The position numbers and the translations under genes were made by a program. This document shows, piece after piece, positions 18,918 through 31,090 of a DNA stretch of 64,000 nucleotides (position 1 is the stretch's first letter; every line of letters starts with the position of its first letter). The stretch comes from the human T2T-CHM13v2.0 reference genome, Homo sapiens. The notes beneath the pieces are model-generated. The model worked only from the letters and a program-made list of their open reading frames with translations. It was not told the DNA's origin and made no database searches. The DNA is taken from assembly GCF_009914755.1 (NCBI RefSeq), contig NC_060925.1; one strand, 5' to 3'.

Positions 18918-19139
18918 TGGGGCTCTTTTTTTTTATTATACTTTAAGTTTTAGGGTACATGTGCACAACGTGCAGGTTTGTTACATATGTATACATGTGC
19001 CATGCTGGTGTGCTGCACCCAGTAACTTGTCATTTAACATTAGGTATATCTCCAAATGCTATCCCTCCTCCCTCCTCCGACCCCACAACAGTCCCCGGTG
19101 TGTGATGTTCCCCTTCCTGTGTCCATGTGTTCTCATTGT

Positions 19140-22100
19140 TCAATTCCCACCTATGAGTGAGAACATGCGGTGTTTGGTTTTTTGTCCTTGCGATAGTTTG
19201 CTGAGAATGATGGTTTCCAGCTTCAACCATGTCCCTACAAAGGATATGAACTCATCATTTTTTATGGCTGCATAGTATTCCATGGTGTATATGTGCCACA
19301 TTTTCTTAATCCAGTCTATCGTTGTTGGACATTTGGCTTGGTTCCAAGTCTTTGCTATTGTGAATAGTGCCGCAATAAACATACGTGTGCATGTGTCTTT
19401 ATAGCAGCATGTTTTATAATCCTTTGGGTATATATCCAGTAATGGGATGGCTGGGTCAAATGGTATTTCTAGTTCTAGATCCCTAAGGAATCGCCACACT
19501 GACTTCCACAATGGTTGAAGTAGTTCACAGTCCCACCAACAGTGTAAAAGTGTTCCTATTTCTCCACATCCTCTCCAGCATCTGTTGTTTCCTGACTTTT
19601 TAATGATCGCCATTCTAACTGGTGTGAGGTGGTATCTCATTGTGTTTTTGATTTGCATTTCTCTGATGGCCAGTGATGAAGAGCATTTTTTCATGTGTCT
19701 TTTGGCCTTATAAATGTCTTCTTTGGAGAAGTATCTCTTCATATCCTTTGCCCACTTTTTGATGGGGTTGTTTTTTTCTTGTAAATTTGTTTGAGTTCAT
19801 TGTAGATTCTGGATATTAGCCCTTTGTCAGATGAGTAGATTGCAAACATTTTCTCCCATTCTGTAGGTTGCCTGTTCACTTTGATGGTAGTTTCTTTTGC
19901 TGTGCAGAAGCTCTTTAGTTTAATTAGATCCCATTTGTCAATTTTGGCTTTTGTTGTCATTGCTTTTGGTGTTTTAGACATGAAGTCCTTGCCCATGCCT
20001 ATGTCCTGAATGGTATTGCCTAGGTTTTCTTCTAGGGTTTTTATGGTTTTAGGTCTAACATTTAAGTTTTTAATCCATCTTGAATTAATTTTTGTATAAG
20101 GTGTGAGGAAGGGATCCAGTTTCAGCTTTCTACATATGGCTAGCCAGTTTTGCCAGCATCATTTATTAAATAGGGAATCCTTTCCCCGTTTCTTGTTTTT
20201 GTCAGATTTGTCAAAGATCAGATAGTTGTAGATATGTGGCATTATTTCTGAGGGCTCTGTTCTGTTCCATTGGCCTATATCTCTGTTTTGGTACCAGTAC
20301 CATGCTGTTTTGGTTACTATAGCTTTGTAGTATGGTTGAAGCCAGGTAGCGTGATGCCTCCAGCTTTGTTCTTTTGGCTTAGGATTGATTGGGCGATGCG
20401 GGCTCTTTTTTGGTTCCATATGAACTTTAAAGTAGTTTTTTCCAATTCTGTGAAGAAAGTCGTAGGTAGCTTGATAGGGATAGCATTGAATCTGTAAATT
20501 ACCTTGGGCAGTATGGCCATTTTCACGATACTGATTCTTCCTACCCATGAGCATGGAATGTTCTTCCATTTGTTTGTATCCTCTTTTATTTCATTGAGCA
20601 ATGGTTTGTGGTTCTCCTTGAAGAGGTCCTTCACGTCCCTTGTAAGTTGGATTCCTAGGTATTTTATTCTCTTTGAAGCAGTTGTGAATGGGAGTTCAGT
20701 CATGATTTCGCTCTCTGTCTGTTATTGGTGTATAAGAATACTTGTGATTTTTGCACATTGATTTTGTATCCTGAGATTTTGCTGAAGTTGCCTGTCAGCT
20801 TAAGGAGATTTTGGGCTGAGAAAATGGGGTTTTCTAGATATACAATCATGTCATCTGCAAACAGGGACAATTTGACTTCCTCTTTTCCTAATTGAATACC
20901 CTTTATTTCCTTCTCCTGCCTGATTGCCCTGGCCAGAACTTCCAACACTATGTTGAATAGGAGTGGTGAGAGAGGGCATCCCTGTCTTGTGCCAGTTTTC
21001 AAAGGGAATGCTTCCAGTTTTTGCCCATTCAGTATGATATTGGCTGTGGGTTTGTCATAGATAGCTCTTATTATTTTGTGATATGTCCCATCAATACCTA
21101 ATTTATTGAGAGTTTTTAGCATGAAGGGCTGTTGAATTTTGACAAAGGCCTTTTCTGCATCTATTGAGATAATCATATGGTTTTTGTCATTGGTTCTGTT
21201 TATATGCTGGATTATGTTTATTGATTTGCATATGTTGAACCAACCTTGCATCCCAGGCATGAAGCCCACTTGATCATGATGGATAAGGTTTTTGATGTGC
21301 TGCTGGATTCAGTTTGCCAGTATTTTATTGAGGATTTTGGAATCGATGTTCATCAGGGATATTGCTCTAAAATTCTCTTTTTTTGTTGCATCTCTGCCAG
21401 GCTTTGTTATCAGGATAATGTTGGCCTCATAAAATGAGTTAGGGAGGATTCCCTCTTTTTCTACTGATTGGAATAGTTTCAGAAGGAATGGTACCAGCTC
21501 CTCCTTGTACCTCTGGTAGAATTCGGCTGTGAATCCATCTGGTCCTGGACTTTTTTTGGTTGGTAAGCTATTAATTATTGCCTCCATTTCAGAGCCTGTT
21601 TGGTCTATTCAGAGGTTCAAGTTCTTCCTGGTTTAGTCTTGGGAGGGTGTATGTGTCGAGGAATTTATCCATTTGTTCTAGATTTTCTAGTTTATTTGCG
21701 TAGAGGTGTTTATAGTATTCTCTGATGGTAGTTTGTATTTCTGTGGGATCGGAGGTGATGTCCCCTTTATCATTTTTTATTGCATCTATTTAATTCTTCT
21801 CTCTTTTATTCTTTATTAGTCTTGCTAGCGGTCTATCAATTTTGTTGATCTTTTCAAAAAACCAGCTCCTGGATTTATGGATTTTTTGAAGGGTTTTTTG
21901 TGTCTCTATTTCCTTCAGTTCTGCTCTGATCTGTTACTTCTTGCCTTCTGCTAGCTTTTGTCTTTTTTTTCTTTCTTTTTAAATTATACTTTAAGTTTTA
22001 GGGTACATATGCACAGCATGCAGGTTAGTTACATATGTATACATGTGCCATGTTGTTGTGCTGCCCCTATTAACTTGTCATTTAACATTAGGTATATCTC

Positions 22101-23117
22101 CTAATGCCTTCTGCTGGCTTTTGAATGTGTTTGCTCTTGCTTCTCTAGTTCTTTTAATTGTGATGTTATGGTGTCAGTTTTAGATCTTTCCTGCTTTCTC
22201 TTGTGGGCATTTAGTGCTATAAATTTCCCTCTACACTCTGCTTTGAATGTGTCCCAGAGATTCTGGTATGTTGTGTGTTTGTTCTCGTTGGTTTCAAAGA
22301 ACGTCTTTATATCTGCCTTCATTTCGTTATGTACCCAGCAGTCATTCAGGAGCAGGTTGCTCAGTTTCCATGGAGTTGAGCAGTTTTGAGTGAGTTTCTT
22401 AACGCTGAGTTCTGGTTTGATTGCACTGTGGTCTAAGAGACAGTTTGTTGTGATTTCTGTTCCTTTACATTTGCTGAGGAGAGCTTTACTTCCAACTGTG
22501 TGGTCAGTTTTGGAATAGGTGTGGTGTAGTGCTAAGAAGAATGTAGATTCTGTTGATTTGGGGTGGAGAGTTCTGTAGATGTCTATTAGGTCTGCTTGGT
22601 GCAGAGCTGAGTTCAATTCCTGGGTATCCTTGTTAACCTTCTGTCTCATTGATCTGTCTAATGTTGACAGTGGGGTGTTAAAGTCTCCCATTATTAATGT
22701 GTGGGAGTCTAAGTCTCTTTGTAGGTCTCTAAGGACTTGCTTTATGAATCTGGGTGCTCCTGTATTGGGTGCATATATATTTAGGATAGTTAGCTCTTCT
22801 TGTTGAATTGATCCCTTTACCATTATGTAATGGCCTTCTTTGTCTCTTTTGATCTTTGTTGGTTTAAAGTCTGTTTTATCAGAGACTAGGATTGCAACCC
22901 CTGCCTTTTTTTGTTTTCCATTTGCTTGGTAGATCTTCCTCCATCCCTTTATTTTGAGCCTATGTGTGTTTCCGCATGTGAGATGGGTTTCCTGAATACA
23001 GCACACTGATGGATCTTGAATCTTTATCCAATTTGCCAGTCTGTGTCTTTTAATTGGAGCATTTAGCCCATTTACATTTAAGGTTAATATTGTTATGTGT
23101 GAATTTGATCCTGTCAT
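19140..23117 (-). pseudogene. L1 ORF2p remnant (EN domain open for 338 aa; RT and C-terminus fragmented)
   Basis: [21 protein letters not shown]..; QGCPLSP; FADD; CWRGC..HCWWDC; interrupted by nested L1 and frameshifts. Confidence 0.96.
21961..22107 (-). mobile_element. Nested 5'-truncated young L1 3' end (~145 bp, L1PA3-like) inside ORF2
   Basis: Poly(T) plus L1 3'UTR; TSD TGCCTTCTGCT(A/G)GCTTTTG at 21942-60 and 22105-23; 'caggttagttac' versus host 'caggtttgttac'. Confidence 0.95.
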
Positions 23118-30100: not shown

Positions 30101-30903
30101 AATTAATTCAAGATGGATTAAAGACTTAAATGTTAGACCTAAAACCATAAAAACCCTAGAAGAAAACCTAGGCAATACCACTCAGGACATAGGCATGGGC
30201 AAGAACTTCATGACTAAAACACCAAAAGCAATGGCAACAAAAGCCAAAATTGACAAATGGGATCTAATTAAACTAAAGAGCTTCTGCACAGCAAAAGAAA
30301 CTACCATCAGAGTGCACAGGCAACCTACAGAATGGGAGAAAAATTTTTGCAATCTACTCATCTGACAAAGGGCTAATATCCAGAATCTACAAAGAACTTA
30401 AATAAATTTAGAAGAAAAAAAACAACCCCATCAAAAAATGGGCAAAGGATATGAACAGGCACTTCTCAAAAGAAGACATTTATGCAGTCAACAGACACAT
30501 GAAAGAATGCTCATCATCACTGGCCATCAGGGAAATGCAAATCAAAACCACAATGAGATACCATCTCACACCAGTTAGAAAGGTGATCATTAAAAAGTCA
30601 GGAAACAACAGATGCTGGAGGATGTGGAGAAATAGGAATGATTTTACACTGTTGGTGGGAGTGTAAACTAGTTCAACCATTGTGGAAGACAGTGTGGCAA
30701 TTCCTCAAGGATCTAGAACTAGAAATACCATTTGACCCAGCAATCCCATTACTGGGTGTATACCCAAAGGATTATAAATCATGCTACTATAAAGACAATG
30801 CACACGTATGTTTATTGTGGCACTATTCACAATAGCAACCAACTATGACTTGGAACCAACCCAAATGTCCATCAATGATAGACTGGATTAAGAAAATGTG
30901 GCA
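27163..30903 (+). pseudogene. L1 ORF2p remnant (frameshifts, FADD changed to FADE, C-terminus deleted)
   Basis: MTGSNSHIT..; [26 protein letters not shown]. Confidence 0.95.
27368..27407 (+). repeat. A40 homopolymer inside L1 ORF2
   Basis: 40 consecutive A. Confidence 0.95.
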
Positions 30904-31090
30904 GTGGGTGGGGGTGGGAGGCAGGGGGAGGGATCGCATTGGGAGAAATACCTAATGTTGGTGACGAGTTGATGGGTGCAGCAAACCAACATGGCACATG
31001 TATACCTATGTAACAGGCCTGCACGTTGTGCTTATATACCCTAGAACTTAAAGTATAATAATTAAAAAAATTAGCAAATACCAAGGGGTA

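What the first reader, a model, noticed from the sequence alone, without database searches (positions are those of the whole stretch)
18929..31075. Apparent gene conversion between two inverted, head-to-head L1s of different subfamilies
Seen: the minus L1 (L1PA4/5-like) and plus L1 (L1PA6-like) have different TSDs and different 3' diagnostics, so they inserted independently. They nevertheless share four odd substitutions at homologous sites. (1) RT motif [13 protein letters not shown] at 21141-43 and 29048-50, within ~75 identical bp. (2) ORF2 [11 protein letters not shown] at 21585-87 and 28608-10. (3) ORF1 KMLR-T-AREKG, at 23499-501 and 26780-82. (4) Synonymous aaaggCaagccc, at 23466-68 and 26813-15. 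Sites 3 and 4 lie in ~79 bp with one mismatch, while the flanks diverge. Established (recalled): L1 consensus reads AFDKI, SEI(E/V)AI, LRAARE and aaagggaag. None of the four changes is a CpG transition. Inference: short, patchy non-allelic conversion or template switching between the arms of a ~5-kb inverted repeat.
Basis: partly seen in the sequence, partly recalled or inferred. Interest (0 to 1): 0.8.

Follow-up and report, generated by a model that had tools for sequence, protein, structure and literature searches.

The report
Head-to-head L1s sharing rare mutations
Two dead L1 retrotransposons that landed separately, head to head, share a few very rare point mutations, which hints at tiny sequence swaps between them but could still be coincidence.

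Summary
A minus-strand full-length L1 (18929-24853) and a plus-strand L1 (25786-31075) each have their own target-site duplication. They are 91.5% identical and belong to a younger and an older L1PA cluster. All four variants are at the stated places. Each is a minority allele genome-wide: 11 of 6001, 20, 137, and 20 of 3956 exact 26-mers.

I found five further shared rare alleles. In the 4535 bp that were controlled, the pair shares 4 transversions and 4 non-CpG transitions. 280 cross-subfamily control pairs predict 0.46 and 1.1 (Poisson P about 1e-3, 0.03, and 2e-4 combined). No other copy carries two of the transversions, so a common sub-lineage is excluded.

The conversion reading is only partly supported.
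- No subfamily-diagnostic allele has moved between the arms.
- Possible tracts are capped at 41-87 bp for the transversions. The identity runs round the transitions are only 10-47 bp.
- There is no GC bias.
- The long identity runs carry no shared private mutations.

Best reading (about 0.5): a few very short non-allelic conversion patches, with most transitions coincidental. Pure coincidence is about 0.4. Conversion between neighbouring repeats is already known. Ape orthologues would settle the question.

The parts
18929..24853 (-). L1 'A': full-length, younger L1PA-type element, dead (stops in ORF2)
   Evidence: Alignment. ORF1p and ORF2p match solved human L1 proteins at E 5e-70 and 2e-69. 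Stops are seen. It groups with the younger panel copies.
18918..18928 (-). A target-site duplication, 3' copy (AAAGAGCCCCA on the minus strand)
24854..24864 (-). A target-site duplication, 5' copy
21961..22106 (-). Nested 146-bp L1 3'-end fragment with a poly(A) tail, inserted into A. It has its own 17-bp duplication at 21944-21960 and 22107-22123, with 1 mismatch.
24865..25757 (.). Unique spacer between the two 5' ends. The distance from L1 end to L1 end is 932 bp (24854-25785).
25758..25772 (+). B target-site duplication, 5' copy (AAATACCAAGGGGTA)
25786..31075 (+). L1 'B': older L1PA-type element. It has an internal 5'UTR deletion, an expanded A-run near 27367-27406 and a deletion of about 200 bp near 30904.
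31076..31090 (+). B target-site duplication, 3' copy
21142..21142 (-). Partner base is 29049. The 75-bp identity run is A 21102-21176 / B 29015-29089.
   Evidence: (11 of 6001)
21585..21585 (-). Partner base is 28610. The 44-bp run is A 21571-21614 / B 28579-28624.
   Evidence: (20 copies)
21675..21675 (-). Shared transversion G>C, newly found here. Partner base is 28518. The 40-bp run is A 21660-21699 / B 28494-28533.
   Evidence: (20 copies)
23466..23466 (-). Partner base is 26815. The 31-bp run is A 23450-23480.
   Evidence: (20 of 3956)
23501..23501 (-). Partner base is 26780. The 47-bp run is A 23482-23528.
   Evidence: (137 copies)
21417..21417 (-). Shared transition C>T. Partner base is 28778. 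The identity run is only 10 bp.
   Evidence: (65 copies)
20476..20476 (-). Shared transition C>T. Partner base is 29718. The identity run is 15 bp.
   Evidence: (141 copies)
20206..20206 (-). Shared transition C>T. Partner base is 29985. The alignment is ambiguous because B has a 1-bp deletion beside it.
19076..19076 (-). Shared transition G>A in the G-rich 3'UTR. Partner base is 30919. The alignment is fuzzy here.
23262..23374 (-). 113-bp perfect A/B identity run (B 26907-27019). Both arms equal the panel majority and there is no shared private allele.
22763..22881 (-). 119-bp perfect identity run, identical to the panel majority in both arms
21465..21565 (-). 101-bp perfect identity run, identical to the panel majority in both arms
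20917..21041 (-). 125-bp perfect identity run, identical to the panel majority in both arms

Best explanation
Two L1 retrotransposons inserted independently, head to head, about 0.9 kb apart. Since then a handful of very short patches, tens of bases each, were copied from one arm to the other by homology-directed repair. This is non-allelic gene conversion using the nearby inverted copy as template. Each patch carried one private mutation, or in one case perhaps two.

This accounts for the four ultra-rare shared transversions and possibly site 3, which lies 34 bp from site 4. Most of the shared C>T and G>A transitions are more likely parallel mutations.

Shown: independent insertion, rarity of the alleles, the excess over control pairs, and the absence of a sub-lineage. 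Inferred: that the excess arose by copying, plus its mechanism, direction and date.
For: (1) The target-site duplications differ and the subfamily clusters differ.

(2) Over 4535 controlled columns the pair shares 4 rare transversions and 4 rare non-CpG transitions. 280 cross-subfamily control pairs (704.6 kb) predict 0.46 and 1.08-1.11. Poisson P is 1.3e-3 for transversions, 0.024-0.026 for transitions and about 2e-4 for all. Under the stricter rule 'no other carrier in the panel', transversions are 4 against 0.28, P 2.1e-4. 0 of 280 control pairs had 4 shared transversions; the maximum was 3, though their overlaps were roughly half as long.

(3) The four transversion alleles are rare genome-wide: 11 of 6001, 20, 20, and 20 of 3956. 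They are therefore not hot spots. Three control-shared transversion alleles had 116, 50 and 33 copies.

(4) 0 of 73 panel loci carries two of the four transversions, so they do not mark a lineage.

(5) The transversions sit in identity runs of 31, 40, 44 and 75 bp. The mean run is 12-14 bp.

(6) A is B's best partner by the sum of the two longest identity runs in both halves, rank 1 of 25 and 1 of 31.

(7) Known precedents. Neighbouring Alus within about 10 kb share non-diagnostic mutations (passages in PMC8230782 and PMC6598467). L1-templated repair tracts as short as 13 bp were seen in cell culture (passage in PMC1920257).
Against: (1) No subfamily-diagnostic allele has crossed. A shows 0 of 47 and 2 of 20 other-type states, and B 6 of 41 and 2 of 20. 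Their peers show 1-10, 0-5, 3-7 and 4-6. Any copying process should move diagnostic sites about as often as private ones.

(2) Diagnostic sites cap the candidate patches at 83, 41, 87 and 75 bp. Four or more separate micro-events are needed.

(3) The four longest identity runs (101-125 bp) contain no shared private allele. Both arms simply equal the panel majority there, which recent copying does not predict.

(4) The run-length excess is modest against like-for-like partners. B against L012 also gives a 125-bp run. In the ORF1 half, A-B ranks only in the top 3.5%.

(6) There is no GC bias. All five transitions go from G or C to A or T.

(7) Arms that differ by 8.5% are poor recombination partners (recalled knowledge).

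(8) The finding was picked out of a very large scan, so a chance P near 1e-3 to 1e-4 is not decisive.
Confidence: 0.5

Rival explanations
1. Pure coincidence. All shared alleles are independent parallel mutations in two old, decaying copies. The pair looks unusual only because it was picked from a very large scan.
For: The transitions have genome-wide counts of 65, 137 and 141. They lie in identity runs of 10-20 bp (47 bp for site 3). About 1.1 are expected anyway. Coincidences at rare transversion alleles do occur in controls: an allele with 33 copies is shared by B and one panel copy, and 2 of 280 control pairs share 3 transversions in about 2.5 kb. There is no transfer of diagnostic alleles.
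Against: Four shared transversions against 0.22 (uniform expectation, 33 x 60 / 9070, counts) to 0.46 gives P between about 1e-4 and 1.3e-3. The alleles are among the rarest class, not hot spots. They sit in longer than average identity runs.
Confidence: 0.38
2. Fold-back (hairpin) pairing of the two arms during replication, with short-patch mismatch repair or template switching. This would be intramolecular quasi-palindrome correction rather than classical double-strand-break gene conversion.
For: The arms are inverted with a spacer of only about 0.9 kb. The shared changes are isolated single bases with no flanking co-conversion, as short-patch repair would give.
Against: The homologous sites are 3.3 to 9.8 kb apart along the strand, from the partner coordinates. 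The template switches known to me (recalled) act over tens to hundreds of bases. Such repair should also flip diagnostic mismatches, and that is not seen. Nothing here separates it from ordinary conversion.
Confidence: 0.07
3. Common descent. Both copies came from a rare L1 source lineage that carried these variants.
For: None beyond the sharing itself.
Against: 0 of 9 other site-1 carriers and 0 of 18 other site-2 carriers fetched has the 21675-type C or the other's allele (0 of 26 panel loci covering that column carry it). 0 of 73 panel loci carries two of the transversions. The carriers are spread over all subfamily ages. A and B differ at 47 + 20 strong diagnostic sites.
Confidence: 0.02
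4. Assembly or polishing cross-talk between the two arms in the T2T-CHM13 assembly.
For: None found.
Against: The arms differ at about 450 positions, including positions immediately beside the shared alleles. Cross-talk would not produce isolated single bases. Reads were not available, so this was not tested directly.
Confidence: 0.03

Closest known systems
Non-allelic gene conversion between neighbouring Alu elements, detected from shared non-diagnostic mutations. The study is Aleshin & Zhi 2010, seen only as described in passages of PMC8230782 and PMC6598467.
   Same: The signal is the same: private, non-diagnostic mutations shared by two independently inserted neighbours less than 10 kb apart. 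The inference is the same: short-range copying between diverged repeats.
   Different: Here the repeats are 5-6 kb L1s of different subfamilies in inverted orientation. This is a single pair, not a genome-wide statistic. No co-converted diagnostic positions are seen, whereas the 98 'clear' Alu cases of PMC8230782 required at least three neighbouring diagnostic changes.
Repair of a break in a chromosomal LINE by gene conversion from endogenous LINEs (Tremblay, Jasin & Chartrand 2000). The paper is not held; it is known here only through a passage and a reference in PMC1920257.
   Same: An L1 serves as template for another L1, and the tracts can be very short (13 bp is quoted).
   Different: That was an induced break in cultured mouse cells. 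Here the events are inferred, germline and ancient. The donor is the adjacent inverted copy, and no break is documented.
Arm-to-arm gene conversion in large palindromes and inverted segmental duplications
   Same: Inverted arms with a short spacer exchange sequence.
   Different: Those arms are over 99% identical and are homogenised along their whole length. These arms are 91.5% identical and almost wholly un-homogenised.

Membership tests
LINE-1 (L1PA) retrotransposon insertions | Homology to ORF1p and ORF2p, a poly(A) tail, and flanking target-site duplications | tested here: met
   PDB matches to human L1 ORF2p (E 1.9e-69) and ORF1p (E 5.1e-70). An 11-bp and a 15-bp duplication flank A and B.
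   No Dfam or Repbase consensus was on hand. The panel ordering places A among the younger copies and B among the older ones. 67 strong diagnostic differences separate the two groups.
Non-allelic (interlocus) gene conversion | The two copies have independent origins, so shared derived states cannot be inherited | tested here: met
   The duplications differ and the subfamily clusters differ. No sub-lineage carries the alleles together.
Non-allelic (interlocus) gene conversion | Excess of shared derived, non-diagnostic alleles over matched control pairs | tested here: met
8 observed against 1.54-1.57 expected, P about 2e-4. Transversions are 4 against 0.28-0.46.
Non-allelic (interlocus) gene conversion | Contiguous tracts in which several linked markers, including diagnostic ones, are co-transferred | tested here: not met
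   There is no excess of other-type diagnostic states in A (0 of 47, 2 of 20) or in B (6 of 41, 2 of 20) over their peers. Only one stretch (A 23450-23528) holds two shared rare alleles, and one of those is a 137-copy transition.
Non-allelic (interlocus) gene conversion | Orthologue comparison showing the recipient changed state on a dated branch | not testable with these tools
   Only the window's own assembly is held. No primate genomes were available.
Non-allelic (interlocus) gene conversion | GC-biased outcome | tested here: inconclusive
   The transversions are one A/T-to-G/C change, two G-C swaps and one A-T swap. All five transitions go from G or C to A or T. There are too few events to judge.
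Quasi-palindrome template switching | Templated change from a nearby inverted copy within a hairpin-sized distance, often several bases at once | tested here: not met
   The partner sites are 3.3-9.8 kb apart, and every change is a single base.

The most novel reading that the evidence does not exclude
Long inverted L1 pairs that are about 9% diverged still exchange information, but only as micro-patches of a few tens of bases that carry single private mutations and leave neighbouring subfamily markers untouched. That would point to a short-patch, perhaps fold-back-templated, repair mode distinct from ordinary tract-forming gene conversion. It would quietly distort divergence-based ages of neighbouring repeats.
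Probability: 0.12. Interest if true: 0.55.

Novelty: new member of a known kind. Interest (0 to 1): 0.3.

Why it matters
If the exchange is real, it is a concrete, base-resolved example of copying between two old L1s of different subfamilies at 8.5% divergence. Shared 'private' mutations in neighbouring repeats would then not be independent. That affects repeat dating, subfamily calls and mutation-spectrum studies that treat old repeats as neutral clocks. It also bears on how inverted repeats are handled by repair. If it is coincidence, the case gives a useful calibration. Two unrelated L1PA copies share about 0.34 rare non-CpG alleles per kb (0.10 transversions per kb) under the panel criteria used here.

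Tried and rejected
(1) A random panel of 100 near-full-length L1s (20 stretches of 6.6 kb per call) could not be fetched. I used instead the 73 three-kb loci returned with the pattern searches. Each site's own retrieval group was masked at that site. I added 28 short 3'-end loci.

(2) Run-length tests. In the ORF2 half, A-B tops the controls for the summed top runs (0 of 202 and 0 of 322). In the ORF1 half it is only in the top 1.5-3.5%. It barely exceeds B against L012 or L011. I treat this as weak support only.

(3) The coincidence of mutation-free runs in both arms looked striking: both arms equal the majority over 101-125 bp, where 0 of 33, 5 of 49, 0 of 26 and 1 of 27 panel copies do. But it follows from choosing runs of identity, and recent copying would predict shared private alleles there, which are absent.

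(4) Diagnostic-swap test: no excess.

(5) Sub-lineage check: rejected.

(6) Hot-spot explanation for the transversions: rejected by the genome counts.

(7) A second inverted pair, L016/L017 on contig C4, shares 11 rare alleles. The flanks I fetched showed no homology outside L1, but my end coordinates were off, so this is inconclusive.

The Tremblay 2000 paper is not held.

(9) The four literature searches found no paper describing this locus, nor a genome-wide test on L1 pairs. That is not proof that none exists.
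Full report
**Anatomy**

The region holds two L1 elements, head to head.
- Element A is on the minus strand at 18929-24853. It is full length and has a poly(A) tail. 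It is flanked by the 11-bp duplication AAAGAGCCCCA, read on the minus strand, at 18918-18928 and 24854-24864.
- Element B is on the plus strand at 25786-31075. It is flanked by the 15-bp duplication AAATACCAAGGGGTA at 25758-25772 and 31076-31090.
- B lacks an internal part of the 5'UTR and about 200 bp near its 3' end. It also has an expanded A-run near 27367-27406.
- A carries a nested 146-bp L1 3'-end fragment at 21961-22106 with its own 17-bp duplication.
- Both elements are dead; stops are visible.
- The arms are 4851 of 5303 aligned bases identical, 91.5%.

Different duplications mean independent insertion.

**Comparison copies**

The window's own assembly could be pattern-searched. After removing the eight loci that are A or B themselves, 73 other L1 copies remained as a panel. 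They cover element positions of about 400-5200. Later I fetched 28 short loci for the 3' end. Where a locus had been retrieved because of a given variant, its group was masked at that site.

A principal-component ordering of intermediate-frequency sites gives a clean old-to-young series. A sits among the younger copies and B among the older ones. The two peer groups differ at 47 + 20 strong diagnostic sites. I could not attach Dfam names.

**Checking the observation**

All four variants are at the stated coordinates and give the stated peptides. Solved human L1 proteins read AFDKIQ, GSEIVAII and KMLRAAREKG at these places. The genome majority is A at site 1 and G at site 4.

Exact 26-mer counts for the derived alleles, our two copies included:
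- site 1: 11 of 6001
- site 2: 20
- site 3: 137
- site 4: 20 of 3956

The 75-bp perfect run round site 1 is confirmed, as is the 79-bp stretch with one mismatch round sites 3 and 4.

**Further shared rare alleles**

The panel revealed four more positions where A and B share a base that at most one other panel copy has:
- 21675 / 28518, G>C, 20 copies genome-wide
- 21417 / 28778, C>T, 65 copies
- 20476 / 29718, C>T, 141 copies
- 20206 / 29985, C>T, ambiguous because B has a 1-bp deletion beside it

The 3'-end panel added one G>A at 19076 / 30919 in 598 further columns, and no transversion.

**Is the sharing more than chance?**

The 4535 controlled columns hold 4 shared rare transversions and 4 shared rare non-CpG transitions. 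I compared this with 280 control pairs, each one younger and one older panel copy, 704.6 kb of overlap in all. They share 0.102 transversions and 0.24 transitions per kb. The expectation for A-B is therefore 0.46 and 1.08-1.11. Poisson P is 1.3e-3, 0.024-0.026, and about 2e-4 together.

With the stricter rule that no other panel copy carries the allele, transversions are 4 against 0.28 (P 2.1e-4) and transitions 2 against 0.50. A uniform model from the private-mutation counts gives 33 x 60 / 9070 = 0.22; A has 29 + 4 transversions and B 56 + 4. No control pair reached 4 shared transversions. Two reached 3, in overlaps about half as long.

The four transversion alleles are not hot spots, at 11-20 copies each. 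Three transversion alleles that A or B shares with panel copies had 116, 50 and 33 copies. So chance coincidences do occur at alleles only slightly commoner than ours.

No panel copy carries two of the four transversions. Three copies carry their retrieval allele plus one of the commoner transitions. A common rare sub-lineage is therefore excluded.

**What argues against conversion**

If sequence had been copied between the arms, subfamily-diagnostic differences should have been copied about as often as private ones. They were not. A shows the other group's state at 0 of 47 and 2 of 20 diagnostic sites, and B at 6 of 41 and 2 of 20. Their peers, scored leave-one-out, show 1-10 and 0-5 (A-like) and 3-7 and 4-6 (B-like).

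Diagnostic sites also box the candidate patches round the transversions to 83, 41, 87 and 75 bp. At least four separate micro-events are therefore needed. The transitions sit in identity runs of 10, 15 and 20 bp (47 bp for site 3). All of them go from G or C to A or T.

The four longest perfect runs between the arms (125, 119, 113 and 101 bp) contain no shared private allele. Both arms simply equal the panel majority there. Recent copying would have carried the donor's private mutations. Ancient copying would have been broken up by later mutations.

The run-length excess is real but modest.
- The summed top runs beat 202 of 202 and 322 of 322 controls in the ORF2 half.
- In the ORF1 half they reach only the top 1.5-3.5%.
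- A is B's best partner in both halves, rank 1 of 25 and 1 of 31. But B against L012 also reaches a 125-bp run.

By my own Poisson estimate that is P about 0.07. The finding also comes from a very large scan.

**Weighing**

The transversion excess is hard to get by chance, P roughly 1e-4 to 1e-3, and a sub-lineage is excluded. Copying between the arms is the natural cause, and such copying is known.
- Neighbouring Alus within about 10 kb share non-diagnostic mutations (passages read in PMC8230782 and PMC6598467, both citing Aleshin & Zhi 2010).
- L1-templated repair tracts as short as 13 bp were seen in cell culture (passage in PMC1920257 citing Tremblay et al. 2000; that paper was not held).

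The missing marker co-transfer and the lack of tract structure pull the other way. I put about 0.5 on a few very short conversion patches with most transitions coincidental, and about 0.38 on pure coincidence. Small weights go to a fold-back repair variant, an assembly artefact and common descent.

**Novelty**

Gene conversion between neighbouring interspersed repeats, and between L1s, is established. At best this is a new and rather marginal example involving two L1 subfamilies in inverted orientation. My four literature searches turned up no description of this locus and no genome-wide test on L1 pairs, but they cover open-access text only. The decisive data are orthologous loci in apes and monkeys and a genome-wide run of the same statistic by distance and orientation. 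Neither could be obtained here.

Noticed in passing
window 21944-22123: A 146-bp 5'-truncated L1 3'-end fragment with a poly(A) tail (21961-22106) is nested in the minus-strand L1, in the same orientation. It is flanked by its own 17-bp duplication with one A/G mismatch.
   Followed up: partly
window 27367-27406: The short A-run at the start of ORF2 is expanded to about 40 A in the plus-strand L1, against 7 in the minus-strand copy.
   Followed up: no
window 28213-28299 and 30904-30911: The plus-strand L1 has a stretch of about 85 bp that does not align to the other copy. Its counterpart place in A is where A carries its nested insert. It also has a deletion of about 200 bp near the 3' end, and its 5'UTR lacks about 380 bp that are present in A.
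   Followed up: no
L016 and L017 (G000:C4:58695876-58698901 and 58719884-58722909): Two L1s on opposite strands, about 24 kb apart, both carry the site-2 allele. They share 11 further rare alleles (7 transversions) in 2.6 kb at 93% identity. The flanks fetched showed no homology outside L1, but my estimate of the element ends was off. An old inverted duplication and conversion are not told apart.
   Followed up: partly
carrier lists: Many carriers of these rare alleles come in nearby pairs on one chromosome, for example C4:95.03/95.19 Mb, C6:44.42/44.59 Mb, C23:146.57/146.62 Mb and C15:52.35/52.51 Mb. L080/L081 are 97.9% identical, which looks like segmental duplication. Copy counts therefore overstate the number of independent mutations.
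   Followed up: partly
window 25786-31075 (private differences of the plus-strand L1): B's private differences are unusually rich in transversions (56 against 47 transitions) and partly clustered, for example at element positions 4526-4535 and 1464-1467. This suggests small multi-base events or local misalignment rather than a plain point-mutation spectrum.
   Followed up: no
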